Positions 2,516 to 37,321 of a DNA stretch of 64,000 nt are shown here, one piece after another; within the stretch, counting starts at the first letter, position 1, and each line of letters begins with the position of its first letter. Below the pieces are notes generated by a model. That model saw nothing but the letters and a program-made list of their open reading frames with translations. It was not told the DNA's origin and ran no database searches. The stretch comes from a phage. The stretch lies in assembly GCA_036253495.1 (NCBI GenBank), contig GCA_036253495.1_4125.1; one strand, given 5' to 3'. The translations under genes and the position numbers were made by a program.

Positions 2516-3592
2516 ATGATTGACAATGCTATTATACAAAGTGTGAATTTATTTTTATCAAGTGATGCATTGTCAATCTCTAATACTATTTGGAAAGAGA
2601 AATACAAATGGCTTCCAGAAAATTTTAGTTTTGATATGCTGGAAACTGATTCGTATAGTGAAAATAATAACAATATTCATGGTTTTGTCCGAACTGGTAA
2701 AAATGGATATACAAAAATGTATTTTCATAGTTGTGATGTTTGTAAACAAGATTCGTCATTGCACGGTCTTGGTATTTTCGCATCTGTACGAAGTAATTTG
2801 GAAAAAGGTATAGTTGCATGTGATTGTTCCATAACTTCAAAACTAACAAAATATCAATATATTGCTAAAATTTATAAAAAATGTTTGGAACTTGGATACG
2901 AATTTATTGGATTTAATGAGGATTGGGAATCAACACAGCCAAAAGGACTAATCCATCTAAAATTATCATGTAATATTCATGGATTATGGAATACAACAAC
3001 AATTGATAATTTACTGTTCCACTCTAAAGGTTGTAAGGAATGTGGGAGACGTAAAATCAGCCAAGCTAGAACAATTGGAGATGAATTCCATATAAATGAG
3101 TTTTTCAAAACAGGTAAATTTAGTAAAGGTAGTAAGTTTTGGCGTTCTGACCGTTTGAATACTTATGGTTACAAGAATTATTGGTTTTATGAATGTTCAG
3201 TATGTCATATGGTAGTTGAATCACAGATTGGTAACCTAAAGGATGGAAAAGTACCATGTTTATGTAATGGAAACATCCAACAACAATGCTATATAAATTT
3301 AGTACTTGACAATAATATTCCAATTGCATTAAAATATGGTATAGCAAACAACTTCACAACGAGAGAAAAATCTCAAAATAAGCATTCAATCTATGATATT
3401 GTAAACAGTGGTGTTTGGGAATTTGAAACAGTATCATTGTGTAAATCAGCAGAAGCGGAATGTAAGAGAATTTTCTCACCAGTACTTGAAGCTCGTGAAA
3501 TGAAAGATGGATATACGGAAACTACATCACCATTAGATATTGACAAAATCATTGAAATATATGAGAATTGGGGTGGTGTGCGAATAAAATAA
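2516..3592 (+). CDS. hypothetical Cys-rich protein with several CxxC/CxC motifs
   Basis: 358 aa ORF; repeated C-x2-C and HG-containing segments suggest zinc-ribbon modules; function unknown. Confidence 0.5.
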   Translation: MIDNAIIQSVNLFLSSDALSISNTIWKEKYKWLPENFSFDMLETDSYSENNNNIHGFVRTGKNGYTKMYFHSCDVCKQDSSLHGLGIFASVRSNLEKGIVACDCSITSKLTKYQYIAKIYKKCLELGYEFIGFNEDWESTQPKGLIHLKLSCNIHGLWNTTTIDNLLFHSKGCKECGRRKISQARTIGDEFHINEFFKTGKFSKGSKFWRSDRLNTYGYKNYWFYECSVCHMVVESQIGNLKDGKVPCLCNGNIQQQCYINLVLDNNIPIALKYGIANNFTTREKSQNKHSIYDIVNSGVWEFETVSLCKSAEAECKRIFSPVLEAREMKDGYTETTSPLDIDKIIEIYENWGGVRIK

Positions 3593-5243: not shown

Positions 5244-5939
5244 ATGACTCAACAATTTATGTTTGGTGGTTATGCGAATGGTGAAACAACTAACATTTCA
5301 ATTCCATATGTAGTTGAAAAAGTTAATGGCAACGAACGTACTTATGATCTAGCATCTCGTATGATGCAAGACCGTATCATTTTCCTTGATACTGATTTCA
5401 ACGACCAGATGGCACATATCATCAAGCAACAATTGGTGTGGTTGGATTCTCAAGGTTCTGAACCAATTACTCTTTATATTTCCTCGCCGGGTGGTAGTGT
5501 TCATGCAGGTTTGGGTATTTCTGATATTGCTAAATCTTGTGTATCACCAATCCGCACAGTAGTGATGGGTTATGCAGCATCAATGGGTTGCTACACACAA
5601 TCAGTAGTTGGTACTAAAGGTTATCGTCTTGGTGGTAAACGCTCGTACTTTATGTGTCACCAAGTAAGTTCTGGTACACAAGGTCTGATCACTGATCAGA
5701 AAATTGCACTAAAACACTCTGATGCATTGAACACATTGCTGACGAAAGAAATCGCTGAAGCTGTAGGTGTTTCTCATGAAAAACTACTAGAAGATGCGGA
5801 CCGCGATTTGTGGTTGAGTGCAGATGAAGCACTTGAGTATGGTGAACTTGGATTTATCGATGGTATTATCCTTGGTCCACGTAATGAAAAAGGTCAATAC
5901 CTAGTTAAACGTCGCGGTGGCGTGGAAGAGTGGGTATAA
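5244..5939 (+). CDS. clpP: ClpP-family serine protease
   Basis: ClpP signature ISSPGGSVHAGLGI, catalytic Ser in GYAASMG, His in FMCHQ, Asp in DADRD; extended -10 promoter-like TGaTATAAT upstream. Confidence 0.78.
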   Translation: MTQQFMFGGYANGETTNISIPYVVEKVNGNERTYDLASRMMQDRIIFLDTDFNDQMAHIIKQQLVWLDSQGSEPITLYISSPGGSVHAGLGISDIAKSCVSPIRTVVMGYAASMGCYTQSVVGTKGYRLGGKRSYFMCHQVSSGTQGLITDQKIALKHSDALNTLLTKEIAEAVGVSHEKLLEDADRDLWLSADEALEYGELGFIDGIILGPRNEKGQYLVKRRGGVEEWV

Positions 5940-8901: not shown

Positions 8902-9276
8902 TTATGCTTTTTTACGTAGGATGTATTGTCCATTATGTAATTTAATTTTGTGAATCATGTACATAGTGCAAAACCCTTCAATACCTGCTTCTTCATCTTT
9001 CAATTTAATGAAGAAAGTATTATCTCTTAGGCTTTCTACAAGGCTTTCATCTGAATCTTCGAAATTCATGATATATGAATCTTTATTTCTATACACCATC
9101 TGAACATATTCATAAACCTTACCGCTTTCATCGATTAGATCATAAGTATGTGCTGAACGTTGTTTTAAAATATATAGTTTACCAAGAATAGCTGCTCCAT
9201 TAATTTTAGCACCAGTAATTTCGATACCATTAATAGAAAAAGGAAGTCTTCCGGTTAATGCAATTGGTTTACCCAT
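8902..9276 (-). CDS. paralog A of inverted cassette (shared N-terminal domain only)
   Basis: Shares LPF-x-I-GG-I, AKI-GxxL, LY-x-QRS-x-YDLI, IKL-NG motifs with the two neighbours; start set at MGKPIALTG by paralog alignment (track ORF extends to 9318). Confidence 0.5.
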   Translation of the reverse strand: MGKPIALTGRLPFSINGIEITGAKINGAAILGKLYILKQRSAHTYDLIDESGKVYEYVQMVYRNKDSYIMNFEDSDESLVESLRDNTFFIKLKDEEAGIEGFCTMYMIHKIKLHNGQYILRKKA

Positions 9277-9336
9277 TATTATTATACTTCTCCAAGTAAA
9301 GTGCATGATAATTTTCATGCACTATATTATTAAAAA

Positions 9337-11763
9337 TTAAGCACTGATTGTTACAGTTGCAGTATCAGTTTTATTGCCATTCGCAGTAGTCACTGTAATG
9401 ACTACAGTACCTTCTTCTAGAGCAGTTACTAATCCATCATCACTAATAGATACTTTAGTAGGTTCATCTGCACTATAAGTTACTGATTTGTTAGTTGCGT
9501 TAGCTGGAAGAACTTCTGGAACTAGTTGAACTGTTTTAGTACCTGATAGTGAAAGATCAGTGGCTTTAGGTGTTAAACCAACGCTGGATACTGGTACTGG
9601 AATATTAACAGTTACAGCACATTTTGCAGTTTTTGCACCATCAGTAGTTTTTACAGTGATATCAGCAGTACCGTTTGCAACAGCAGTGATTAAACCACTT
9701 GCACTAACAGTTGCGACCCCAGCAGCAGAAGTACTATAAGTTACTGCTTTGTTAGTTGCATTAGCTGGTAGTACAGTTGGTGTTAGTTGTTGAGTTGCAC
9801 CAACAGATGTTAAAGTTGCTGTTGTTGGAGAAACAGAAACACTAGCTACAGGAACTGGGATTGACACAGTAATGACACCTTGACCTGTTTTACCACTTCC
9901 ATCAGCGGCAGTTGCGATAATGTTTGCAGTACCGTTAGTTAACGCAGTTACAACACCAGTACTAGCATCAACTTTCGCTACAGCAGGTGCACTAGAAGAC
10001 CATGTTACAGCTTTATTAGTTGCGTTAGCTGGAAGAACTTCAGCAGCCATTGCTTGAGTTGCGTTAACAGCAGTCAATGTTTTAGTTGCTGGTGTAACAT
10101 TAATAGTTGTTACTGGAACTGGAATTGCTACAGTTACTGCACAAACCGCAGTTTTTGCACCATCAGCGGTTGTTACGGTGATGTTAGCAGTGCCATTTGC
10201 TACAGCAGTTATCAATCCTGAAGTGCTAACAGTTGCTACACCCGCATTAGAAGTACTATAAGTTACTGCTTTATTGGTTGCATTAGTTGGTGCAACCGAT
10301 GGTGTTAGTTGTTGTGTTGCACCAACAGATCTTAAAGTTGCTGTTGTTGGAGAAACAGAAACACCAGTTACTGGTACTGGAATATTAACAGTTACAGCAC
10401 AAACTTTACTAAAGCCACCATCAGCAGTAGTAGCCGTGATATTAGCAGTGCCATTCGCTACCGCAGTGATTAAACCACTTGTACTAACGGTTGCAACACC
10501 AGCAGCAGAAGTTGCGTATGTTACTGCTTTGTTACGAGCATTAGCTGGTAGAACAGTTGCAGTTAATTGCTGTGTTGCACCAACAGAAGTTAATGAAGCG
10601 GTTGCAGGTGTTAGGTTAATACCAGTTACTGGGATCGTCACATCAATAATTGATTGTGCGGTTTTTTCACCATCAATAGTTGTTACGGTAATAGTGGCAG
10701 TACCATTATTAACAGAAGTTACTAAACCGTCATCATCAACTTCTGCTACTGTAGGTGCAGAAGATTCATAACGAACTTCCTGATTTGATGCAGTTCTTGG
10801 TAGTACCGTTGCTGTTAATGGTTCATTTGCACCAATAGTAGTGAATGTATATGTTTCAGGTGTTAACGTAACACCAGTTACTGCTGTTTGAACTTTAATA
10901 GAAGAAGTATCAGTAAATGAACCATCTTCAGATGTTGCAGTAATAGTAACATCACCATTGGATACACCTGTTACCAACCCAGAATCTTTATCAACTGTTG
11001 CAACGGATGGAGCAGATGAAGTCCATATAACTTTCTTGTCTGTTGCTGAGGCCGGAGTAACTTCAGCTAACAATTGTTGAGTTGACCCAACGTTTACAGT
11101 TGCAGATTTAGGAGAAACGGTAACACCAGTAACACCAGTACTGACAACGATAGAACACACATCTGTGAAATCACCATCGTGAGTTGTTACGGTTACATCA
11201 GCATTGCCATTTGCAAGTGCAGTTGCTAGACCTGTTTGAGCATCAACTTCAACGATTGTAGGAGCAGATGAAGAGTAGGTTACTGCCTTGTCTTTTGCAT
11301 TAGATGGAACTACTTGGGCTGATAGTTGTTTTGTTGCACCAACTTTAAGAGATGCATCTTTGGGTGTAATTACAACACCAGTTACGGGGATATCAGCATT
11401 AACATAATCGCGTTTTACGATACGACCATTATTTAATTTAATAACACGACCCATATAAAGCATAGTATACCCCATGCTAATACCATCATCAACATAGATC
11501 ATGAATGAATTGTCTTGAACCATATTAATTGCGTCTGCTGGTTCAACAGAATTTGGAATGTCGATACCACGAGTATCATACCAACGCATGGAAACTTTGT
11601 AATAGATATCACCATTATCATTGATGAGATCATACACGTTACCGGAACGTTGACGGTTAATATATAAAGTTTCCGTTAACACCTTACCATCGATTTTAGC
11701 GACAGAAACTTTAATACCACCAATACCAAAAGGCAATTTACCTTCACTAGATATTGCTTTCAT
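9337..11763 (-). CDS. Ig-like (Big_2-type) repeat protein with paralog N-terminal domain
   Basis: 808 aa; N-terminal ~130 aa paralogous domain followed by at least 9 tandem ~88-aa repeats (VTGV..P....L.VG.T.QL...V.P.NAT.K.V.Y.SS...VATV...GL.TAV..G.A.IT..T.DG). Confidence 0.7.
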   Translation of the reverse strand: MKAISSEGKLPFGIGGIKVSVAKIDGKVLTETLYINRQRSGNVYDLINDNGDIYYKVSMRWYDTRGIDIPNSVEPADAINMVQDNSFMIYVDDGISMGYTMLYMGRVIKLNNGRIVKRDYVNADIPVTGVVITPKDASLKVGATKQLSAQVVPSNAKDKAVTYSSSAPTIVEVDAQTGLATALANGNADVTVTTHDGDFTDVCSIVVSTGVTGVTVSPKSATVNVGSTQQLLAEVTPASATDKKVIWTSSAPSVATVDKDSGLVTGVSNGDVTITATSEDGSFTDTSSIKVQTAVTGVTLTPETYTFTTIGANEPLTATVLPRTASNQEVRYESSAPTVAEVDDDGLVTSVNNGTATITVTTIDGEKTAQSIIDVTIPVTGINLTPATASLTSVGATQQLTATVLPANARNKAVTYATSAAGVATVSTSGLITAVANGTANITATTADGGFSKVCAVTVNIPVPVTGVSVSPTTATLRSVGATQQLTPSVAPTNATNKAVTYSTSNAGVATVSTSGLITAVANGTANITVTTADGAKTAVCAVTVAIPVPVTTINVTPATKTLTAVNATQAMAAEVLPANATNKAVTWSSSAPAVAKVDASTGVVTALTNGTANIIATAADGSGKTGQGVITVSIPVPVASVSVSPTTATLTSVGATQQLTPTVLPANATNKAVTYSTSAAGVATVSASGLITAVANGTADITVKTTDGAKTAKCAVTVNIPVPVSSVGLTPKATDLSLSGTKTVQLVPEVLPANATNKSVTYSADEPTKVSISDDGLVTALEEGTVVITVTTANGNKTDTATVTISA
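9400..10780 (-). repeat. tandem ~261-264 bp DNA repeats encoding Ig-like domains
   Basis: Near-identical segments such as GTTACTGCTTTGTTAGTTGCATTAGCTGGTAG recur at about 9478, 9738, 10003, 10261, 10520. Confidence 0.65.
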
Positions 11764-11867: not shown

Positions 11868-12383
11868 TTATTGGAAACGAGCATACGGTGGGAATCTGGT
11901 TTGGTCAGGCCAATCTTTCGGAGAGAAGTAAGCAGTGAATTGCATTTTATCATTTGAATAAAGAACAAAATCATCTGGCTTTATTATAACTTTAGACAAC
12001 GAATTTGGCTCCACGTTCGTTCTTCTGAAAATTATTTCACCATTATGTAATTTTATTTTATTACTTTGATATTGAATACCAAAACCATACTTATTATTAA
12101 TAGCATCAGCTTCTTTTATGCAAAATGTATTATTTGCTAAAGATTTAGCAATTTCAGCATCGTCATCATCATACAACAATGTTGATTTATCTTTATTTCT
12201 ACCTGTGATTTTTATATCTTTGTAAATCTTGAAATTTTCAGATATTAAATCATATGAATCGAATGTTCTTTGTTTTATAACATACAATTCTTTAACAAAT
12301 ACTTGCCCTTCTATCTTTGCAGCAGTAACCTGCAATCCACCTATAACAAATGGAAATTGATCTAAGCCAGCTATTGGTTTCAT
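11868..12383 (-). CDS. paralog C of inverted cassette
   Basis: 171 aa; shares N-terminal domain with 8902-9276 and 9337-11763; SD AAGGAGATG on minus strand. Confidence 0.55.
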   Translation of the reverse strand: MKPIAGLDQFPFVIGGLQVTAAKIEGQVFVKELYVIKQRTFDSYDLISENFKIYKDIKITGRNKDKSTLLYDDDDAEIAKSLANNTFCIKEADAINNKYGFGIQYQSNKIKLHNGEIIFRRTNVEPNSLSKVIIKPDDFVLYSNDKMQFTAYFSPKDWPDQTRFPPYARFQ

Positions 12384-12581
12384 AACATCTCCTTACCTTA
12401 AAAATGGGATTGTAAACTGCCTCCCAATATGATACCATAGTTCAAATGGTCAATTGGTAAATCAATGAACTTAACAAAAACACTTGATACTACAGTCATA
12501 ATTGTTCAGTTTTGCACTTGACATAATTGATCAATTATTGTACTATTATTTATGTTCCTTAACTCAAATCCGAGGTAATCA

Positions 12582-13187
12582 ATGAAACGAATCTTGAAAG
12601 AGATTGTACAAACCGTTGTTTTAATCGCTGCATTAAACTTTCCGGCAGCGGCAGAAGTTTCAAAAAAATCATCTGTTTTTCTATTAAATGAACATGTTGT
12701 GTCAATTGATGGTGAACTAAATGATGAAACTGTACAAGAAGTGAAGAAGTTGTGGAAAGAAACAAGATTTAAAATTTTAACAATTACATCACCTGGTGGA
12801 GATTTTGATGCAGGATTAGATTTGGGATTGTTTGTGGCTGCTAAAAAGTTAACTGTTTATGTCCCAAAGCAATGTAATTCGTCTTGTAGTCTGGTTTTTT
12901 TCTCTGCATCATCTGAACGTAGGGATATGAGTGATACCGCAGTGATGGGTTTACATAACATCTCACTAGTATCTACGAATGGTGCAGATCCAGATACGAC
13001 ATTCGTTTCAGTTAGACAGTTGATGGAGTTTACACATCAAGTCTCAACTAAAGTTGGGTATCTTTTTACACTGTACGCACATAACGGTATCCCCGCTGAA
13101 ACACTCATTGATATCAGTACTAAACATGGTGAGGATATCGTTGTCTTACGAAGATCAGATCTCGTTAAATGGGGAATCATTCAATAA
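12582..13187 (+). CDS. secreted ClpP/S49-like protein (putative protease, catalytic residues uncertain)
   Basis: N-terminal signal-peptide-like segment; ITSPGGDFDAGLDLGLF resembles the ClpP/SppA SPGG motif. Confidence 0.45.
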   Translation: MKRILKEIVQTVVLIAALNFPAAAEVSKKSSVFLLNEHVVSIDGELNDETVQEVKKLWKETRFKILTITSPGGDFDAGLDLGLFVAAKKLTVYVPKQCNSSCSLVFFSASSERRDMSDTAVMGLHNISLVSTNGADPDTTFVSVRQLMEFTHQVSTKVGYLFTLYAHNGIPAETLIDISTKHGEDIVVLRRSDLVKWGIIQ

Positions 13188-13314
13188 AAAGTTGTATTTT
13201 TTATGAAGCAATGATATAATCCTAATACTAATTCATGATTTTGGTTAAGGGTGGTGTACTGCCACCCGATTTTAAGATATAATGGTTGTACATTATCAAC
13301 CAAGGAAACAAAAA

Positions 13315-13578
13315 ATGACAGAATTATCACATCTTCAAGGCTGGACAGAGTTCATCTTCTATGCTACTATAGTTACATATGGAATCATTGTTCTTTTATC
13401 AGTGATTATGGCAAGTGATTTCAAGAGTGGTTTTCTTGAAGAAAATGGTGAGTTTTCTTCTAAAACTGAAAAGTACTTTTATTATTTCTTTAAAATTTCG
13501 TATACAATTTTACTCATAATTTTGGGTTTACTATTGTATTTCATGTACACAATCTTAGATGTAATGCATCTTTTATAA
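13315..13578 (+). CDS. small membrane protein
   Basis: Two hydrophobic helices; ATG at 13315 with SD AAGGAAA (track start 13282). Confidence 0.35.
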   Translation: MTELSHLQGWTEFIFYATIVTYGIIVLLSVIMASDFKSGFLEENGEFSSKTEKYFYYFFKISYTILLIILGLLLYFMYTILDVMHLL

Positions 13579-13589
13579 CGGAGATATCA

Positions 13590-14192
13590 ATGACTTGTAT
13601 TATTGCTTACACTGATGGTAACACATCTTTTATCGCGGGTGACAAACTGGGTAGTAATGGTTTCACTAAAGCAATTCAAACTGAACCAAAAGTGTTTGAA
13701 AAAGAATTCATCAAAATCGATGAAAGTGGATTGAATCGCACCAAAGAAGTTATGGCAATGGGATACACGTCGAGCTTCCGCATGGGACAATTGCTGACGT
13801 ATAAACTTGATTTACCTGAACAGCAATCAAACCAAACATTCTCACAGTACTTAGTACTTGAGGTAATCCCACGTATTCGCACACTCTTCAAAGAAGAATG
13901 GGGTGCTCGTGATACAACTCAAGACGTTGGTGGTGGACAGTTTATTATTCTCCACAATCATACAATTTATGAAGTTCAAGAGGATTTTTCAGTACTCCAA
14001 CCTAAGACACAAATTACATCTGTTGGTAGTGGTACATATCATGCAATTGCAGCTATGCAAGCATATATTGAAGTTCAAAAAGAAACAGGTGTTAAGATGG
14101 TTGATCGCACCGATTCTATCTTCAAAATTGTAAGTGATAATGTTACCAGCGTTAGTGCTGAGTATGATTTACTAAGCTATCCTAAGCTGTAA
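13590..14192 (+). CDS. HslV/proteasome-like Ntn-hydrolase family protein
   Basis: N-terminus MTCIIAYTDGNTSFIAGD resembles HslV TTIV...IAGDG; later ITSVGSGTYHAIAAMQA resembles HslV GSGG.YA.AAA. Confidence 0.5.
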   Translation: MTCIIAYTDGNTSFIAGDKLGSNGFTKAIQTEPKVFEKEFIKIDESGLNRTKEVMAMGYTSSFRMGQLLTYKLDLPEQQSNQTFSQYLVLEVIPRIRTLFKEEWGARDTTQDVGGGQFIILHNHTIYEVQEDFSVLQPKTQITSVGSGTYHAIAAMQAYIEVQKETGVKMVDRTDSIFKIVSDNVTSVSAEYDLLSYPKL

Positions 14193-14199
14193 TACAAAA

Positions 14200-14226
14200 A
14201 AGGGGATTCTTATAATCCCCTATATT
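14200..14226 (+). terminator. intrinsic terminator-like hairpin (GGGGATT-CTTAT-AATCCCC)
   Basis: Perfect 7-bp stem after stop of 13590-14192; weak U-tract. Confidence 0.45.
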
Positions 14227-14252: not shown

Positions 14253-14465
14253 ATGATAACTATCAATTACTTTTCACTATGCTTTGTTTATTTTGTTGTT
14301 GTATTTCTAGCAGTTGTAGCGTACAATAATATTAAATGTATATATAAAATTATCAAAAACAAAGAGAAATTCAATGGATGGATGATATATCACATTGTCA
14401 TCTCGGTTGTGTGTATCTTATTTGTATACGATTTGAGTTCATTAGGTACAGTAGGTAAGCTATGA
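14253..14465 (+). CDS. small membrane protein
   Basis: 70 aa, hydrophobic; stop overlaps start of Sir2 gene. Confidence 0.35.
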   Translation: MITINYFSLCFVYFVVVFLAVVAYNNIKCIYKIIKNKEKFNGWMIYHIVISVVCILFVYDLSSLGTVGKL

Positions 14466-15214
14466 TTTCTGACTCTTTTATAAAAAATAAAGGTAATAAA
14501 CGTGTATTGGTTATTTCCGGTGCAGGTCTATCCGTTGAAAGTGGGATGGAACCGTTTCGCATGGACGATGGCCTATGGGATCAATTTCAAATAAATGATG
14601 TATGTAACATTGCACGTCTTAGTACTAAGTATCATTTAGTACACACTTTCTATAATACATTACGTGTTAAAATGAAAGATTGTGTTCCTAATGATATGCA
14701 TTATTATATCAAATCTATAGAAGATACATACGGTGATAACTTTTTACATATGACTTCGAATATGGATGATCTCTATACTCGTATTGGTGGCAATGAATTA
14801 AAGTTACATGGTAATTTAAAAGAAGTTATTGAGAATTTTACAATTGGTGGTGACGATTATAGTATTGTGGATTGTGGTTATGAACCGTACATTCCGAAAG
14901 AAGGTGTCTTTGCGAAACCAAACGTAGTGTTCATTGGTGAATATTATCGTTATGTTGATGGTGAAAAACTCCCAATATACGATGAGCGTAATTTAGTATT
15001 GCAATCCTTAACAGAAGATGATACAGTTGTAGTCATTGGTAGCAGTGACACAGTACTGAAATGGTCACATCTGGTTGCGTGTTTACCATGCTTTAGTGTT
15101 AATATCAACATCAGAAAAAATGATAACGATTTCATGTTCAATGAAAAAATTATAAAACCAGCTACAAAAGCGATTCCAGTACTGGAAACTATCATTAAGG
15201 ATAGAATGAAATGA
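14462..15214 (+). CDS. Sir2-family (sirtuin-like) NAD-dependent protein
   Basis: Motifs GAGLSVESGMEPFR, TSNMDDLY, LHG, PNVVFIGE, IGSSDTV in sirtuin order; no Zn-ribbon CxxC seen. Confidence 0.7.
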   Translation: MISDSFIKNKGNKRVLVISGAGLSVESGMEPFRMDDGLWDQFQINDVCNIARLSTKYHLVHTFYNTLRVKMKDCVPNDMHYYIKSIEDTYGDNFLHMTSNMDDLYTRIGGNELKLHGNLKEVIENFTIGGDDYSIVDCGYEPYIPKEGVFAKPNVVFIGEYYRYVDGEKLPIYDERNLVLQSLTEDDTVVVIGSSDTVLKWSHLVACLPCFSVNINIRKNDNDFMFNEKIIKPATKAIPVLETIIKDRMK

Positions 15215-15759
15215 TTCGAGAAGTACCTCTAGGTGAGTATGGTAAACGAGCAAACTTTGTATTCTGTTACTTCTTTGCTCGAAATTGTAACCCATATAAA
15301 GGTTATGATTTAAATGATATCCCTGTTGTGAATCTGGTATTACTCCAGCTTCGTTGGGATGGTTTACTGGGTGGTTGTGGTGGAACAGTTGAAGATACCG
15401 ATGCCACCTTAGAAGATGCACTATTCCGTGAAATTCAGGAAGAGATGGATTATAATATTTTCATCGAACAACTGAAACCATTGAAAACTTACGAACTATA
15501 TCCAGGAGCACATACTCATAGCTATAGTTATGAAGTTACTTACGAAGAATTGAAAGCGATTCGCGATGGATACTGTACTGCTAAACATGCAAGTGCAGAA
15601 GTGGCTGGTGTTAATTTATGTCACATTTCTCGTTATTCAAAGGGACAAAACCGAGAAGCAGGATATAATAATCTTATGACACAAAACTTCATAGGAACTG
15701 CTAAAATGGAATTAGAACATCTTGTTCAATCCGAGAATTTACTGATTAGTTACTTATAA
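15211..15759 (+). CDS. hypothetical protein with divergent Nudix-like box
   Basis: GGTVEDTDATLEDALFREIQEE approximates the Nudix box with one extra residue; ATG overlaps Sir2 stop (ATGA). Confidence 0.4.
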   Translation: MIREVPLGEYGKRANFVFCYFFARNCNPYKGYDLNDIPVVNLVLLQLRWDGLLGGCGGTVEDTDATLEDALFREIQEEMDYNIFIEQLKPLKTYELYPGAHTHSYSYEVTYEELKAIRDGYCTAKHASAEVAGVNLCHISRYSKGQNREAGYNNLMTQNFIGTAKMELEHLVQSENLLISYL

Positions 15760-23554: not shown

Positions 23555-24496
23555 ATGCAAATAGATAAATTATATACGGACGTAACTAACTTCCTCAACC
23601 AGAGTAACGCTGATTTAACAAATGAAAATGCAAATAAAGACGCTAAATGTGTTAATACACATCGTGATTTATTGGCAGGTATTCTTTCTAAACATTATTC
23701 CCAAGATGTGATTCCTGATGAATTGATGAAGTGGCATAATGAAGGTTACGGTCATATTCATGATTTAGACTATTACATTAGCCCATTAACAAACTGTTGT
23801 TTAGTTAATTATCCTGATATGCTTGCTAATGGCTTCATGATTGGTTGTGCCAAGATTGAAGAACCAAAAAGCTTTGGGGTAGCTTGTACAGTACTAACAC
23901 AGATTGTTCAGGCTGTGGCAAGTTCACAGTACGGTGGTCAGTCGTTGGCTCACATTGACACTGGCCTTGCACCATATGTACAAAAGTCATGGGATAAACT
24001 TCTAGAAAAACAAAAGAAATACAATCTTAGTACTGAATTCATCGAAGATGAGTTGCGTAAGGAAGTTTATGACGGTTGTCAAACAATTCTATATCAAACA
24101 AACTCAATGATCAGTACTAATGGTCAGGCTGCGTTCATTTCTTTGAGTTTAGGATTAGGTACATCTAAATTTGAAAAACTAATCACTGAACAATATTTGA
24201 AAGTACATGAAAATGGACTAGGTAAAGATAAGATTACTCCAGTATTTCCTAAAGTAATATTCTTTCTTCAGGATGGAATTAATATGAATACCAATGATAC
24301 TAACTATGATCTTAAACAGTTAGCTATGCGTTGTGCATCAAAAAGAATCTATCCAGACTTTGTTTCTGTACCATTGAACCATAAAGTAACTGGAAGTACC
24401 AGTACTGCTGTTACTCCTATGGGATGCAGAAGCTTCTTAGGTAAATGGGAAGATGAAAATGGCAACGAACAGTACAATGGCCGTTTCAATTTGGGT
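23555..24496 (+). CDS. nrdD: anaerobic ribonucleoside-triphosphate reductase NrdD, exon 1
   Basis: N-terminal NrdD-like region ending ...PMGCRSFLGKWEDENGNEQYNGRFNLG, matching the E. coli NrdD segment PMGCRSFLG...NLG recalled from memory; exon end placed at T24496. Confidence 0.72.
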
Positions 24497-25666
24497 AGAC
24501 ATACATGCCCCATTGCTGAGTGATCAGTAATTGCAAACACGTTAACATGCTGGAACCCCCTAAAGCCATAAACACTACAACGCAATCTTAATAGATAAAC
24601 GTGAATGTTACGAGAGTAGAAAAAAGTTTTATGGATATATAATAAGTTGTAAATCATATTATATGTACAATGGGAAATCAGCAGCCAAGCCATCATTAAT
24701 ATAATGGTGGAAGGTTCAACGAGTATAATACGTGACTCTAATATTAAAACTTCCATAAATAATATTTTATGGAGGATATATAATGAGAAAAGGAAGTATA
24801 TATAAAATAGAATGTATAGTAACTAATAAAGTTTATATTGGACAAACCGTTTTATATCCACCGATGAAAAGATGGGTGGAACACTGCCAAAACAATGATG
24901 AAAAATCATGTATTAGTAAAGCTATTAAAAAATTTGGTTTTGAAAATTTCACATTTCAAATTTTAAAAACTAATATTGATTTAAATAATCTTAATGATGA
25001 AGAAATAAAATATATTGAAATTTATGATAGTTATAAGAATGGTTACAACTCAACATTAGGTGGTCACCAAACCTTTAATGGAAGTAAAATAACTGAACTT
25101 GATGCTATAAAAATTATAGAATATATTAAATCATATAAAGATCTTTCATTCGTAGAAATAGCAAAAACTTTAAATGTTCCATACGGCTGTGTAAGTGATA
25201 TAAATTGTGGCGAAACTTGGTATCAAATAAATGAAACATACCCTATTAGAGATAACAAAAGAAATAAGATTGAAGATAATATAGATTCAATTTATGAGTT
25301 ATTGAGAAATGGTGTTTCTAGTATAGAAATTGCAAAAATATATAATGTTTCAAATGTCACCATTTGTAACGTTAATAATGGAACAATCTATCGAAACGAA
25401 TCAGTTGAATACCCAATTTTTAAACCACAAAATTCATCAAAACGACATTCTATTGAAATAGTTTCTAAGATTATTGATATGTTAATTAATACAGATAAAA
25501 ATTATTCTGAAATTGCAAAATGTTTAAATGTAGGAAGAAAAACTGTTGCAAATATCAATAACGGTTCTGGATATAAAGAACTATCAAATGAACTTGGTTA
25601 TATATCATTTCCTCTTCGTTAGAGTATGGTGTACTCTAATCCTTCATGAAAGTGAAGGTACAAATG
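24497..25666 (+). mobile_element. group I intron interrupting nrdD, carrying a GIY-YIG homing endonuclease ORF
   Basis: Exon ends in U; P-like ATGCTGGAA (24546), Q-like AATCAGCAGCC (24675), R-like GTTCAACGAG (24713); GACTCTAA (24735) pairs with TTAGAGT (25621) as P7; P9-like hairpin CCTTCA-TGAAAG-TGAAGG; terminal G at 25666; spliced product reads GRFNLG|VVSINLP in frame. Confidence 0.65.
24783..25622 (+). CDS. GIY-YIG homing endonuclease (intron-encoded)
   Basis: N-terminal IYKIECIVTNKVYIGQT (GIY-x10-YIG); SD GGAGG upstream; located inside nrdD intron. Confidence 0.8.
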   Translation: MRKGSIYKIECIVTNKVYIGQTVLYPPMKRWVEHCQNNDEKSCISKAIKKFGFENFTFQILKTNIDLNNLNDEEIKYIEIYDSYKNGYNSTLGGHQTFNGSKITELDAIKIIEYIKSYKDLSFVEIAKTLNVPYGCVSDINCGETWYQINETYPIRDNKRNKIEDNIDSIYELLRNGVSSIEIAKIYNVSNVTICNVNNGTIYRNESVEYPIFKPQNSSKRHSIEIVSKIIDMLINTDKNYSEIAKCLNVGRKTVANINNGSGYKELSNELGYISFPLR

Positions 25667-26530
25667 GTTGTCTCAATCAACCTACCGCTAATTGCTCTTG
25701 AAAGCACTACTGATGGTGATTTCTTTGATAAGATAGATGAGCATATGAACATTGCATACAGAGCACAGATGAACCGTGTAGAGCGTTTAAAAGGTACTAA
25801 GGCTAAACAGAACCCGATTCTGTTCATGGAAGGTGCTCTTGCACGTCTTGATGCAGAAGAAACTATTGACAAACTCTTCTACGATGGTTATGCTAGTATT
25901 AGTATTGGTTATGTAGGATTAGTTGAATGTTCAGAGATTTTGACTGGTTCAATCAGTAAAGAGTTCTGTATGTCAGTACTGAATTATATGAAAGTCAAAT
26001 GCGATGAGTTCAAAAAAGAGAGTAACATAGCTTTTAGTCTATATGGAACCCCAGCAGAGTCACTTTGCTACAAATTTGCACGTTGCATCGAATCTAAGTA
26101 CCCTTCAGTACTAAAACGTGATTACATCACAAATTCCTTCCATCAACCAGTATGGGTAGAAAGTTCACCATTTGATAAGTGGAGTTACGAAGAGGGCTTT
26201 GCTTACCTCAGCAATGGAGGAAACATCAGTTATGTGGAATCACCCAACCTAAGTAACAATATTCAAGCACTTGAGACTTTAGTCAATTACGCTTACACAA
26301 AGATTCCATATTTTGGCATCAACCAGCCAATTGACCAGTGTTTCGAGTGTGGGTATAAAGGTGAGTTCAGTGTAGATAAACACGGTTTTCATTGTCCAGT
26401 ATGTGATAATCGCAATGAGAAGACAATCTCAGTGATTCGTCGTGTTTCTGGATATTTGGGGAACCCATCGTCTCGTGGATTCAACAAAGGCAAACAACAA
26501 GAATGTTGTGAGCGTATACAACACAAATAA
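25667..26530 (+). CDS. nrdD: anaerobic ribonucleoside-triphosphate reductase NrdD, exon 2
   Basis: VVSINLPLIALE...; C-terminal Zn ribbon CFECG...CPVCDN and glycyl-radical motif RRVSGYLG. Confidence 0.75.
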   Translation, partial: VVSINLPLIALESTTDGDFFDKIDEHMNIAYRAQMNRVERLKGTKAKQNPILFMEGALARLDAEETIDKLFYDGYASISIGYVGLVECSEILTGSISKEFCMSVLNYMKVKCDEFKKESNIAFSLYGTPAESLCYKFARCIESKYPSVLKRDYITNSFHQPVWVESSPFDKWSYEEGFAYLSNGGNISYVESPNLSNNIQALETLVNYAYTKIPYFGINQPIDQCFECGYKGEFSVDKHGFHCPVCDNRNEKTISVIRRVSGYLGNPSSRGFNKGKQQECCERIQHK

Positions 26531-35648: not shown

Positions 35649-36886
35649 ATAATAACAAATTTCTTGAACAAACAATTGTGAAGCACTTAGCAGGTTCACA
35701 AGCGTATGGAACCAGTACACCTGAAAGTGATACGGATTATCGTGGTATTTTTCTTGCTAACAAAGAGTTCATTCTGACACCTTTTTATAATGTAAAAGAA
35801 GTTTCTGATTCAAGAGAAGAAGATACTAAATTCTATGAACTAAACCAGTACTTAAGACTATACACAGAGGCTAACCCAAATATCCTTGAATCACTATGGG
35901 TTGATCCTGAACACATCGTAGAAAGTACTGAAATCTATGATTATCTACGTACATTCAATCAACAATTACTTAGTTCTAAGATCGCATTCTCTTATACCGG
36001 TTATGCATATAATCAGGTTAAACGTATGTCCAATCACCACGGGTGGATGGATAAAGAGCGTATTGCTGAAAAACGTCTAAATGAAATCTTAGAAGATTTT
36101 CCTGTAGATGAAACTTTAGCATGGATGTATGAAAACTTCCCACACTATTTGGTAGAACGTTTAGATACTTCTAAACTACATCCATTTAATGCTAAGAAAA
36201 TAGATTTTGAAAAATACATGCGTGATACTTCATTGCAGTTAGTTTCGACTCATCCGTTGAAACAGTATCATTTTGTACGTTTAGTACATAATTACAGTAC
36301 TGATAAAGTACTAGACCGTGATTTCAACTTATTGGATTATAACAATGGGTACGAATTAATTCATTACGGTGAAAATATCTTTGGTGTTATTATCAATCCT
36401 AATGAAAGTACAATTAACGCTGATGGTTCTTTACGTTATTTCAACAAAGAACGCAGTACTGAAGAATTGAAAGTGCGACCTGAACTCATTGTTAAATTCA
36501 ATGAAAAAGAATACAGTGAGAACAGTGAGAACCGTAAAAGTTATCACAAATGGAAAGAGAATCGTAATGCTAAACGTGCAATTCTTGAATCCAAACACGG
36601 CTACGATTGCAAACATGCTATGCATACGATCAGACTTTTGAATACAGCCGAAGAAGCATTACAAAGCGGTATTATCCTTGTTAAACGTCCTGATGCTGAT
36701 ATGCTAATGGATATCCGCAACGGTAAATGGAAGTATGAAGAAGTCATGGATTATTTCAATGAAAAGGTTGACTATATCCGCAATGTGGTGTATCCTAAGT
36801 CAGTTCTACCAAAGAAACCAAACATTCAACTAGCTGCAAAAGTTCTAATCGATATTCGAGAAATGCAGTGGTATGGTAAAAAATAA
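35645..36886 (+). CDS. nucleotidyltransferase-fold protein (Pol-beta superfamily)
   Basis: Classic motif HLAGSQAYGTSTPESDTDYRGIF (GS-x10-DxD); 413 aa with large C-terminal extension. Confidence 0.55.
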   Translation: MNNNKFLEQTIVKHLAGSQAYGTSTPESDTDYRGIFLANKEFILTPFYNVKEVSDSREEDTKFYELNQYLRLYTEANPNILESLWVDPEHIVESTEIYDYLRTFNQQLLSSKIAFSYTGYAYNQVKRMSNHHGWMDKERIAEKRLNEILEDFPVDETLAWMYENFPHYLVERLDTSKLHPFNAKKIDFEKYMRDTSLQLVSTHPLKQYHFVRLVHNYSTDKVLDRDFNLLDYNNGYELIHYGENIFGVIINPNESTINADGSLRYFNKERSTEELKVRPELIVKFNEKEYSENSENRKSYHKWKENRNAKRAILESKHGYDCKHAMHTIRLLNTAEEALQSGIILVKRPDADMLMDIRNGKWKYEEVMDYFNEKVDYIRNVVYPKSVLPKKPNIQLAAKVLIDIREMQWYGKK

Positions 36887-36895
36887 GAGGATTAT

Positions 36896-37321
36896 ATGCT
36901 GAATTCAACAATTATTGATGCACTACGTGTACTGAATCGCGAAGTTAGCCGTATCCATAAAAGTACTGATCGTTATAAAGTAATGCATGAAATTAAACTA
37001 GAATTAGAAGCTATCAATAAGGGTGAATGGTTCCTTGAACCAGAATACCGTACACGTGGACCAACTGACGTTGAGAAAGCAATTGCAAAATTCATTTCTG
37101 GACGTTATGGTGATGTATCAGAGGCAGATGTACTGATGAATTTACATTTAACCTCCTTAGAAATTGAAGAAAAATTCAAATTTGATTCACTGGACTGGGT
37201 AGAAATGATCATGGAACTTGAAGATGAATTTAAGGTTGAGATCGAAGATAAGTATGAATCTGGAGATACCAGAATCGTGCATCTCGTTGAACATGTACAA
37301 ACAATGATCGATAAACGCTAA
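36896..37321 (+). CDS. hypothetical protein
   Basis: 141 aa ORF. Confidence 0.45.
   Translation: MLNSTIIDALRVLNREVSRIHKSTDRYKVMHEIKLELEAINKGEWFLEPEYRTRGPTDVEKAIAKFISGRYGDVSEADVLMNLHLTSLEIEEKFKFDSLDWVEMIMELEDEFKVEIEDKYESGDTRIVHLVEHVQTMIDKR

What the first reader, a model, noticed from the sequence alone, without database searches (positions are those of the whole stretch)
12582..14192. Cluster of protease-fold proteins: secreted ClpP-like protein and HslV/proteasome-like Ntn hydrolase (plus a canonical ClpP at 5244-5939)
The window encodes three members of self-compartmentalising protease folds. 5244-5939 is a ClpP with an intact Ser-His-Asp triad. 12582-13187 is a ClpP/S49-like protein with an apparent signal peptide and uncertain catalytic residues. 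13590-14192 has an HslV-like N-terminus (MTCIIAYTDG...IAGD) and a GSGxxxAxAA segment. Small membrane protein genes are interleaved. Multiple protease homologs in an early region are unusual and could reflect control of host proteolysis or a decoy function.
Basis: partly seen in the sequence, partly recalled or inferred. Interest (0 to 1): 0.5.

Follow-up and report, generated by a model that had tools for sequence, protein, structure and literature searches.

The report
Three protease-fold genes, jumbo phage
This stretch of a ~350-kb E. coli jumbo phage (121Q/A4 group) does encode a true ClpP, an exported ClpP-fold serine peptidase and a proteasome/HslV-like threonine peptidase, all with their key catalytic residues conserved, but related phage genomes already annotate these genes this way and each belongs to a known kind, so the finding is real but largely ordinary.

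Summary
The window is 97-99% identical to Escherichia phage A4 (Asteriusvirus). Phage 121Q already annotates the same three genes as "protease (ClpP-like)" twice and "protease (ClpYQ-like)".

- **P1 (5244-5939)** is a true ClpP with Ser/His/Asp, the oxyanion residues and the N-terminal gating motif intact. It is not the head protease, because a separate S77 prohead protease exists. Phage A4 also encodes its own ClpA (43% identical to E. coli ClpA, with LGL at the ClpP-docking loop). P1 is therefore most likely the core of a phage-encoded ClpAP.
- **P3 (13590-14192)** has a proteasome fold (pLDDT 91) with invariant Thr1, Asp17, Lys33 and G-x-G. Homologs occur in 198 phage records. No phage HslU was found.

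The three genes are not one system: RaK2-type phages keep P1 and P2 but lack P3 at this locus. The conserved catalytic residues argue against a decoy role. Substrates remain unknown.

The parts
5244..5939 (+). P1: canonical ClpP proteolytic subunit (231 aa), with an N-terminal extension of about 18 residues and a conserved C-terminal tail of about 22 residues
   Evidence: Pfam CLP_protease 7.7e-42. PDB ClpP 1y7o 1.4e-37. Ser/His/Asp, Gly68/Met98 and the N-terminal P-x-V-V-E...E-R motif are conserved, while docking-pocket residues have diverged: Y60T, F82S, F112L, L114G.
12518..12546 (+). Sigma-70-like site TTGACA-17-TACTAT, 36 bp upstream of P2 (weak evidence only)
   Evidence: 10/12 match. 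The count of such sites in the region is not above shuffled sequence.
12582..13187 (+). P2: exported ClpP-fold Ser/His peptidase (201 aa)
12582..12653 (+). P2 predicted Sec signal peptide (residues 1-24: MKRILKE / IVQTVVLIAALNF / PAAA|E)
   Evidence: Hydropathy peak at residues 8-26. A small-x-small site at residues 22-24 in 14 of 20 family members, 16 of 20 allowing a shift of 1-3 residues. AF2 places helix 2-19 followed by a disordered linker 19-28.
12873..12887 (+). P2 C98-N-S100-S-C102 motif: the nucleophile Ser flanked by the only two cysteines of the mature protein
   Evidence: C98, S100 and C102 are invariant in 20 of 20 sequences, with N99 nearly invariant. There are exactly 2 Cys after residue 30 in 20 of 20. 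C-x-S-x-C occurs in 144 of 147 wider-family representatives. hhalign places S100 on the ClpP nucleophile.
12954..12956 (+). P2 His125 codon (GLHNIS), the general-base candidate
   Evidence: Invariant. Aligned to the ClpP catalytic His. The Ser-to-His spacing of 25 residues equals E. coli ClpP Ser97-His122.
13315..13578 (+). Small 2-TM membrane protein (87 aa from the start used in phage A4; the ORF could begin at 13282)
   Evidence: Two hydrophobic segments. 39% identical to 121Q gp474. It is not a conserved neighbour of P3 homologs outside this clade.
13590..14192 (+). P3: proteasome/HslV-like N-terminal-threonine peptidase (200 aa)
   Evidence: phrog_1040 3.6e-21. AF2 pLDDT 91, pTM 0.87. Foldseek top hits are HslV and BPH. 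hhalign against E. coli HslV gives 97% probability.
13593..13691 (+). P3 catalytic residues: Thr2 (Thr1 after Met removal; 13593-13595), Asp18 (Asp17; 13641-13643), Lys34 (Lys33; 13689-13691)
   Evidence: M1, T2, C3, D18 and K34 are invariant in 27 sequences down to 28% identity.
14025..14033 (+). P3 G146-S-G148 loop (the proteasome Gly128-Ser129-Gly130 equivalent)
   Evidence: G146 and G148 are invariant. The middle residue is mostly S, but C, V or A in some members. It aligns to the GSG of E. coli HslV.
14201..14221 (.). G+C-rich hairpin 9 bp after the P3 stop codon (terminator-like; the T-rich tail is on the minus strand only)
14253..14465 (+). Small 2-TM membrane protein (70 aa), overlapping the start of the Sir2 gene
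   Evidence: Two hydrophobic segments. Annotated as A4_470.

Best explanation
These are three separate, catalytically competent peptidases that work in different places. They are not one system.

1. P1 is a cytoplasmic ClpP. Its most likely partner is the phage's own ClpA homolog, which is encoded about 90 kb away and outside this window. Together they would form a phage-encoded ATP-dependent ClpAP protease that degrades selected host or phage proteins during infection. P1 is not the capsid maturation protease.
2. P2 is made with a cleavable Sec signal peptide and exported to the periplasm. There, with no ATP or AAA+ partner available, it would act as a ClpP-fold Ser100/His125 peptidase. Its nucleophile turn is probably braced by a Cys98-Cys102 disulfide. 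Its fast evolution suggests that it acts on host envelope or periplasmic proteins.
3. P3 is a cytoplasmic proteasome-family peptidase. Removal of the initiator Met exposes Thr1, which works with Asp17 and Lys33. It has no phage-encoded unfoldase, so it either acts on its own on peptides and unfolded chains, as proposed for BPH-type homologs, or borrows the host HslU.

Shown here: the folds, the conserved catalytic residues, the export signal, the phage ClpA, and the absence of a phage HslU or ClpX. Inferred: oligomeric state, partners, the disulfide, and all substrates.
For: P1:
- Full-length match to cellular ClpP with every catalytic and gating residue conserved.
- It scores far better against cellular ClpP models (2.4e-46) than against the ClpP-related head-maturation model (5.9e-14, far below its cut-off).
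- A separate Peptidase_S77 prohead protease lies between the portal and scaffold/capsid genes in A4. [quoted passage not shown]
- A4_579 is a 761-aa ClpA, 43% identical to E. coli ClpA over 733 residues. It has two Walker A motifs and LGL aligned to the IGL617 ClpP-docking loop.
- ClpA is reported as conserved in most Rak2-like phages (PMC6102473).

P2:
- S100 and H125 are invariant and align to the ClpP Ser and His.
- The signal peptide is conserved, and there are exactly two cysteines in the mature part in 20 of 20 members.
- In the wider family, 144 of 147 representatives carry C-x-S-x-C and 119 of 147 have an N-terminal hydrophobic segment.
- Identity to 121Q, RaK2 and L019 is 43, 32 and 33%, against 90, 71 and 63% for P1.

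P3:
- Thr1, Asp17, Lys33 and G-x-G are invariant across 27 sequences.
- The model is confident and has the proteasome fold.
- tblastn found no HslU, ClpX or Lon homolog in 349 of the 355.5 kb of phage A4.
- Phage-borne proteasome homologs are documented (PMC8665760).
Against: - There is no biochemical or expression evidence for any of the three proteins.
- P1's IGF/IGL docking-pocket residues have diverged (Y60T, F82S, L114G), so pairing with any particular ATPase is unproven.
- The phage ClpA lies in a structural-gene region, far from P1.
- The annotated ClpS-like adaptor A4_74 could not be verified (Pfam 20.3 bits against a 23-bit cut-off; BLASTP against E. coli ClpS is not significant).
- P2 lacks a conserved acid at the ClpP Asp171 position.
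- P2's signal peptide was judged by rule, not by a trained predictor, and it could be an uncleaved membrane anchor.
- P3's oligomeric state and any dependence on HslU are untested.
Confidence: 0.6

Rival explanations
1. P3 hijacks the host unfoldase. Rings of the phage HslV-like protein would dock onto E. coli HslU, replacing or mixing with host HslV. The result would be a hybrid ATP-dependent protease with altered specificity.
For: The phage has no HslU of its own. HslV ties with BPH as the closest solved relative, and hhalign against E. coli HslV gives 97% probability. The catalytic set is complete. Other authors have noted phage HslV genes without an HslU (PMC7823757).
Against: P3 is only 12-19% identical to HslV and is equally close to BPH, which has no known ATPase partner. 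It scores far below the NCBIfam HslV cut-off (20 bits against 137). The Asteriusvirus proteins carry an insertion of about 18 residues (roughly 39-56) that other family members lack. No interface residues could be tested.
Confidence: 0.3
2. The proteins are decoys or inhibitors. They would mimic host ClpP or HslV in order to titrate host ClpX, ClpA or HslU, or to poison host rings, and would not act as proteases themselves.
For: P1's docking-pocket residues differ from those of E. coli ClpP. P3 has no cognate ATPase in the phage genome.
Against: The catalytic residues of all three proteins are strictly conserved over long evolutionary distances, which a pure decoy would not require. P2 is exported, away from any AAA+ partner. 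The phage also encodes its own ClpA.
Confidence: 0.08
3. P1 and/or P2 are virion (head) maturation proteases, as the RefSeq product names in 121Q and RaK2 suggest ('head maturation protease').
For: phrog_94 and NCBIfam Clp_rel_HeadMat match P1. Virion structural genes lie on the opposite strand between P1 and P2.
Against: A dedicated S77 (T4 gp21-type) prohead protease sits in the portal-scaffold-capsid module. Group 2 jumbo phages are reported to use S77 (PMC7824862). P1 matches cellular ClpP far better than the head-maturation model, and it lies among nucleotide-metabolism genes. P2 carries an export signal, which is incompatible with capsid assembly in the cytoplasm. Neither protein is flagged as a structural protein in the 121Q record, which does flag nearby genes that way.
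Confidence: 0.07
4. P2 is a membrane-anchored protease of the SppA or NfeD type. Its N-terminal helix would stay uncleaved, and it would process the small 2-TM proteins encoded next to it.
For: There are weak Pfam NfeD1b_N hits (E = 0.025). Small 2-TM genes lie adjacent. AF2 models residues 2-19 as one helix.
Confidence: 0.15

Closest known systems
Bacterial ClpP (MEROPS S14; E. coli ClpP, PDB 1tyf/1yg6)
   Same: P1 has the same fold, triad, oxyanion hole, N-terminal gating loop and length class, and is 36% identical to E. coli ClpP. P2 has the same fold, with Ser and His at the same positions and the same 25-residue spacing.
   Different: P1 has N- and C-terminal extensions that are conserved in the RaK2/121Q clade, and its docking-pocket residues have diverged. 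P2 has a signal peptide in place of the axial loop, no conserved Asp, and a C-x-S-x-C motif instead of G-x-S-x-G. It is exported, so it cannot use an ATPase.
SppA and NfeD (MEROPS S49, ClpP/crotonase fold, membrane-associated and ATP-independent)
   Same: Like P2, these are ClpP-fold peptidases that work at or beyond the inner membrane without ATP.
HslV (ClpQ), the bacterial proteasome-like peptidase
   Same: P3 has the same Ntn fold. Thr1 is exposed by Met removal without a propeptide, and IAGD (Asp17), Lys33 and GSG are present.
   Different: P3 is 12-19% identical to HslV and scores far below the HslV family cut-off. It has an extra beta-hairpin insertion. No HslU is encoded by the phage.
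BPH and the group I proteasome homologs carried by phages (PPH, AAH, CPH; Fuchs, Alva and Lupas 2021, PMC8665760)
   Same: P3 is a compact proteasome homolog without propeptide or C-terminal extension, and is phage-borne. BPH matches it structurally as well as HslV does (TM up to 0.72).
   Different: PPH is about 140 residues and lacks helix H2. P3 is 200 residues with both helix pairs, so it is not PPH. Assignment to AAH or CPH could not be tested because the reference sequences were not retrievable.
Clp components reported in jumbo phages (Iyer et al. 2021, PMC7824862; Atu_ph07, PMC6102473)
   Same: ClpP, ClpA and ClpS-type genes have been reported in Rak2-like and other jumbo phages and proposed to target host proteins. 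This window is another instance.
   Different: Those reports do not describe the exported P2 type or its C-x-S-x-C motif.

Membership tests
ClpP (S14) - P1 | Sequence match above the curated family threshold | tested here: met
   Pfam CLP_protease 143.7 bits against a 20.2 cut-off. It falls below the NCBIfam equivalog cut-offs (158 against 249-309), so it is a divergent member rather than an ortholog-grade ClpP.
ClpP (S14) - P1 | Ser-His-Asp triad and the Gly68/Met98 oxyanion hole | tested here: met
   All five residues are conserved in the alignment with E. coli ClpP and with 1y7o.
ClpP (S14) - P1 | N-terminal axial loop, and a hydrophobic pocket for the IGF/IGL loop of an AAA+ partner | tested here: inconclusive
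   The loop motif is conserved (P4, V6, V7, E8, E14, R15). Pocket residues are partly changed (Y60T, F82S, F112L, L114G).
ClpP (S14) - P1 | A cognate Clp ATPase is available | tested here: met
   Phage A4 encodes a ClpA homolog with LGL at the IGL loop. The host also supplies ClpX and ClpA. Physical pairing was not tested.
ClpP (S14) - P1 | Tetradecameric barrel | not testable with these tools
   No multimer prediction or experiment was available.
ClpP (S14) - P2 | Sequence match above the curated family threshold | tested here: not met
   Pfam 15.0 bits against 20.2, E = 0.023. NCBIfam hits reach at most 17 bits. hhalign against P1 gives only 18% probability.
ClpP (S14) - P2 | ClpP fold | tested here: met
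ClpP (S14) - P2 | Ser-His-Asp triad | tested here: not met
   Ser100 and His125 are invariant and aligned to ClpP. The position equivalent to Asp171 is variable, with D, R, Q, E, S, K or N. P2 therefore has a Ser/His dyad or uses a different acid.
ClpP (S14) - P2 | Cytoplasmic location with an AAA+ partner | tested here: not met
   A conserved Sec-type signal peptide replaces the axial loop. This is a rule-based prediction only.
SppA/NfeD (S49) - P2 | Ser-Lys catalytic dyad and an S49 sequence signature | tested here: not met
   There is no SppA hit. NfeD1b_N scores 14.6 bits against 40. His, not Lys, is conserved, and the structural match is weaker than to ClpP.
HslV - P3 | Sequence match above the curated family threshold | tested here: not met
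   NCBIfam HslV 20 bits against 137, and TIGR03692 18.8 against 157.75. There is no Pfam Proteasome hit for P3 itself, though three distant family members carry PF00227.
HslV - P3 | Proteasome beta / Ntn-hydrolase fold | tested here: met
   Foldseek E = 4e-9 to HslV and 1.3e-8 to BPH. hhalign against E. coli HslV gives 97% probability, E = 7.8e-11.
HslV - P3 | N-terminal Thr nucleophile with Asp17, Lys33 and the Gly-Ser-Gly loop | tested here: met
   T2, D18, K34, G146 and G148 are invariant in 27 sequences. The numbering after Met removal is exactly 1, 17 and 33. hhalign shifts the Lys by three residues, so the Lys33 assignment rests on position and invariance.
HslV - P3 | HslU partner encoded alongside | tested here: not met
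   No HslU homolog was found in 349 kb of phage A4 or next to homologs in six other phages. The host hslU exists.
HslV - P3 | Double hexameric ring | not testable with these tools
   No multimer modelling was available.
PPH (Fuchs 2021) - P3 | About 140 residues, lacking helix H2 | tested here: not met
   P3 is 200 aa, and the model has H1 63-72, H2 84-103, H3 149-166 and H4 170-184. The family definition comes from PMC8665760.
AAH/CPH (Fuchs 2021) - P3 | Clustering with the reference sequences WP_035979212 and WP_008185288 | not testable with these tools
   The reference sequences cannot be fetched by accession here, and the supplement holds no sequences.

The most novel reading that the evidence does not exclude
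P2 may represent a large, unnamed family of exported ClpP-fold peptidases, defined by a Sec signal and a Ser/His dyad whose nucleophile sits in an invariant C-x-S-x-C turn, probably braced by a disulfide. The family has about 4,300 representative clusters at E <= 1e-3, and no Pfam or NCBIfam model reaches its curated cut-off on the members scanned. On this reading, RaK2/121Q-type jumbo phages use such an ATP-independent 'periplasmic ClpP' to cut host envelope or periplasmic proteins. Possible purposes are superinfection exclusion, receptor removal, or disabling envelope-based defence.
Probability: 0.3. Interest if true: 0.6.

Novelty: new member of a known kind. Interest (0 to 1): 0.33.

Why it matters
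Nothing here changes how these protease families are understood, and all three genes are already annotated in related phages. Three things are useful in practice:

1. The RefSeq label "head maturation protease" on the ClpP-like genes of 121Q and RaK2 is probably wrong. The true prohead protease is a separate S77 gene.
2. These phages appear to carry a self-sufficient ClpA plus ClpP pair. That makes phage-directed ATP-dependent proteolysis testable with two genes.
3. P2 points to an uncharacterised but widespread family of exported ClpP-fold enzymes with a distinctive C-x-S-x-C active-site turn. A phage member that evolves quickly is a convenient entry point for finding what such enzymes cut.

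P3 is also a small, easily expressed, catalytically complete phage member of the proteasome superfamily. No function is known for that phage family.

Tried and rejected
- **Small membrane proteins as partners of P3:** I tested whether the 2-TM proteins flanking P3 are conserved partners, because T5-like phage Seafire also has a membrane protein upstream of its homolog. I rejected the idea. The Aeromonas, Vibrio, Salicola and Moorella homologs have no TM neighbour, and the Seafire protein is unrelated.
- **Plain sequence searches of P2 and P3 against the PDB:** these found nothing meaningful.
- **ClpS-like adaptor A4_74:** it could not be confirmed. Pfam is below its cut-off, and BLASTP against E. 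coli ClpS is not significant.
- **Promoter scan:** the TTGACA-17-TACTAT site upstream of P2 is a good match, but such sites are not enriched over shuffled sequence. I make no claim about timing.
- **Literature searches:** nothing was found for phage-encoded ClpP function or for a periplasmic ClpP-like family.
- **Supplement of Fuchs et al.:** it contains no sequences that would allow assignment to AAH or CPH.
- **Third catalytic residue for P2:** D74, D76 and D138 are conserved in the close family but not in the wider one. Without model coordinates this stays open.
- **Cys3 of P3:** it is invariant in the 27-sequence set, but T5-like homologs start MTA, so it is not essential to the family.
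Full report
**Source and prior annotation.** The window comes from a jumbo myovirus of the genus Asteriusvirus. It aligns at 97-99% identity, with several insertions and deletions, to Escherichia phage A4 (ON286972, 355.5 kb); window position 5244 corresponds to A4 position 88155. Phage A4 annotates the three genes as a "TP-dependent" [sic] Clp protease, "ClpP/crotonase-like domain protein" and "protease". The curated 121Q record (NC_025447) calls them "protease (ClpP-like)" for gp464 and gp473, and "peptidase HslV family / protease (ClpYQ-like)" for gp475. All three fall in existing PHROG families: phrog_94, phrog_26024 'protease' and phrog_1040 'peptidase HslV family'.

**P1 (5244-5939).** This is a true ClpP.
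- Pfam CLP_protease scores 7.7e-42, and the best solved relative is ClpP 1y7o at 1.4e-37.
- It is 36% identical to E. coli ClpP.
- In an alignment with E. coli ClpP, Ser97, His122, Asp171 and the oxyanion residues Gly68 and Met98 are all conserved. So is the N-terminal gating motif (Pro4, Val6, Val7, Glu8, Glu14, Arg15).
- Several residues of the IGF/IGL docking pocket differ: Y60T, F82S, F112L and L114G.

P1 is unlikely to be the head maturation protease, despite that RefSeq label in 121Q and RaK2, for three reasons.
- Phage A4 has a separate Peptidase_S77 (T4 gp21-type) protease between its portal and scaffold/capsid genes.
- Iyer et al. report S77 as the prohead protease of group 1 and group 2 jumbo phages. 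They describe ClpP as patchy and probably directed against the host (PMC7824862).

I then searched 349 of the 355.5 kb of phage A4 with the E. coli AAA+ proteins. This found a full-length ClpA homolog, A4_579 (761 aa). It is 43% identical to E. coli ClpA over 733 residues, has two Walker A motifs, and has the sequence KRSLGLSGG aligned to the IGL617 loop through which ClpA docks onto ClpP. The same search found no ClpX, HslU or Lon homolog. A ClpA gene is reported as conserved in most Rak2-like phages (PMC6102473). The simplest reading is a phage-encoded ClpA-ClpP protease. The annotated adaptor A4_74 could not be confirmed as ClpS.

**P2 (12582-13187).** Sequence methods alone barely link this protein to ClpP. 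Pfam gives E = 0.023, below threshold, and tblastn against P1 gives 24.5% identity over 106 residues at E = 0.003.
- *Distribution.* The close family is small. It has 22 clusters in the 5.8-billion-protein collection and 48 phage records, all of them jumbo phages infecting Escherichia, Klebsiella, Salmonella, Erwinia or Xanthomonas, mostly of the RaK2/121Q clade.
- *Catalytic residues.* The family alignment shows invariant SPGGDFD, C98, S100, C102 and H125, with N99 nearly invariant. Profile alignment to P1 puts Ser100 on the ClpP nucleophile and His125 on the ClpP base. The 25-residue spacing equals that of E. coli ClpP Ser97-His122. The position of ClpP Asp171 is not conserved in the family.
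- *Export.* The N-terminus is a classical Sec signal: MKRILKE, then a hydrophobic core, then PAAA|E. A small-x-small site at residues 22-24 occurs in 14 of 20 members, or 16 of 20 allowing a shift of 1-3 residues. The mature part contains exactly two cysteines in 20 of 20 members, and they flank the nucleophile. This pattern is typical of a disulfide in an exported protein.
- *Wider family.* An exhaustive profile search found 4,273 representative clusters at E <= 1e-3, but only 14 at E <= 1e-30. Of the 147 best new representatives, 144 carry C-x-S-x-C, 145 carry S-x-G-G and 119 have an N-terminal hydrophobic segment. Of the members I scanned, only two reached the generic Pfam CLP_protease threshold, and none reached an NCBIfam cut-off. 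I found no literature describing the family.
- *Rate of evolution.* P2 diverges much faster than P1. Identities to 121Q, RaK2 and L019 are 43, 32 and 33% for P2, against 90, 71 and 63% for P1.

I conclude that P2 is an exported, ATP-independent ClpP-fold Ser/His peptidase. Its target is unknown.

**P3 (13590-14192).**
- *Catalytic residues.* Sixty-five homologous clusters were found. In a 27-sequence alignment reaching 28% identity, M1, T2, C3, D18, K34, G146 and G148 are invariant. After removal of the initiator Met, these are exactly Thr1, Asp17, Lys33 and the Gly-x-Gly loop of proteasome beta subunits and HslV.
- *Fold.* The AlphaFold model is confident (pLDDT 91, pTM 0.87). Its best solved matches are HslV and BPH, at TM 0.6-0.72 and 12-19% identity. 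hhalign against E. coli HslV gives 97% probability. P3 nonetheless scores far below the curated HslV thresholds.
- *Distribution.* Homologs occur in 198 phage records. These include many T5-like Epseptimavirus genomes, where the protein starts MTA, and Vibrio, Aeromonas, Salicola and Moorella phages. They usually lie among nucleotide-metabolism genes.
- *Relation to described families.* Fuchs, Alva and Lupas (PMC8665760) have already described phage-borne proteasome homologs: PPH, AAH and CPH. P3 is not PPH, which is about 140 aa and lacks helix H2. Assignment to AAH or CPH could not be tested.
- *Partner.* No HslU is encoded by the phage. P3 therefore either works alone or uses the host HslU.

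**Is it a cluster?** P1 and P2 keep the same relative position across the whole RaK2/121Q clade: DNA ligase, ClpP, dCMP deaminase, a minus-strand Ig-repeat structural gene, then P2. This holds even at 33% identity. P3 is missing from that locus in RaK2 and in L019. The small 2-TM genes around P3 are conserved within Asteriusvirus only. The three genes are therefore neighbours rather than a system.

**Verdict.** The folds and the presence of active sites are right. A decoy role is disfavoured because the catalytic residues are conserved. The phage has its own ClpA, which changes the "host proteolysis" reading. Having several proteases is normal for this phage clade. I class the finding as a new member of known kinds. 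The exported C-x-S-x-C ClpP-fold family is the one aspect that is not yet described.

Noticed in passing
window 23555-26530: The anaerobic ribonucleotide reductase gene nrdD is split in two: 23555-24523 (Pfam NRDD positions 1-283) and 25646-26530 (NRDD 280-562 plus the glycyl-radical domain). A GIY-YIG + HTH homing-endonuclease-like ORF at 24783-25622 separates them. Phage A4 has the gene intact. Rfam gave no group I intron match at E <= 0.01, so this may be a split gene or an unmodelled intron.
   Followed up: partly
window 2516-3592: An extra 358-aa ORF with two CapR homology domains sits between the DNA ligase and metallophosphoesterase genes. It is absent from phage A4, so it is probably a mobile insertion.
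   Followed up: partly
window ~36885-36917, compared with A4 119525-123120: The window lacks about 3.6 kb that phage A4 carries here, holding A4_503 'putative tail fiber' and A4_504 'tail protein I'. This suggests a host-range module difference between the two phages.
   Followed up: no
window 8902-9318, 9337-11763 and 11868-12383 (minus strand): Three adjacent minus-strand genes share a paralogous N-terminal domain of about 120 aa (phrog_33171 / phrog_10468, 'virion structural protein'). The middle one carries 8 Big_2 Ig-like repeats and differs in repeat number from phage A4. They interrupt an otherwise plus-strand block between P1 and P2.
   Followed up: partly
window 14462-15759; L019 6728-12067: A Sir2 gene (14462-15214) and a Nudt16-like Nudix gene (15211-15759) follow P3. 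In the RaK2-like contig L019, the same block also holds an NMNAT-like/NUDIX gene, NAMPT, Acb1 (anti-CBASS) and a Nudix-cREC fusion. Together these look like an NAD-salvage and anti-defence neighbourhood.
   Followed up: no
L006 2501-3954 (Aeromonas phage 2L372D gp210-gp211): This phage has two adjacent proteasome-like genes. One belongs to the P3 family (183 aa). The second is 294 aa, starts VTTIAY and has a long acidic C-terminal extension. They might form a hetero-oligomer.
   Followed up: no
A4 (ON286972) 178050-180335, 153818-156621 and 263162-263707; all outside the window: Phage A4 encodes a full-length ClpA homolog, a MoxR-type ATPase plus vWA pair, two GroES-like co-chaperones, a DnaJ-like protein and an unverified 'protease adapter'. 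This is a sizeable phage-encoded proteostasis toolkit.
   Followed up: partly
window 14201-14221: A perfect 8-bp G+C-rich hairpin (AGGGGATT-CTTAT-AATCCCCT) lies 9 bp after the P3 stop codon. Its T-rich tail is on the minus strand only, although no minus-strand gene ends there.
   Followed up: no
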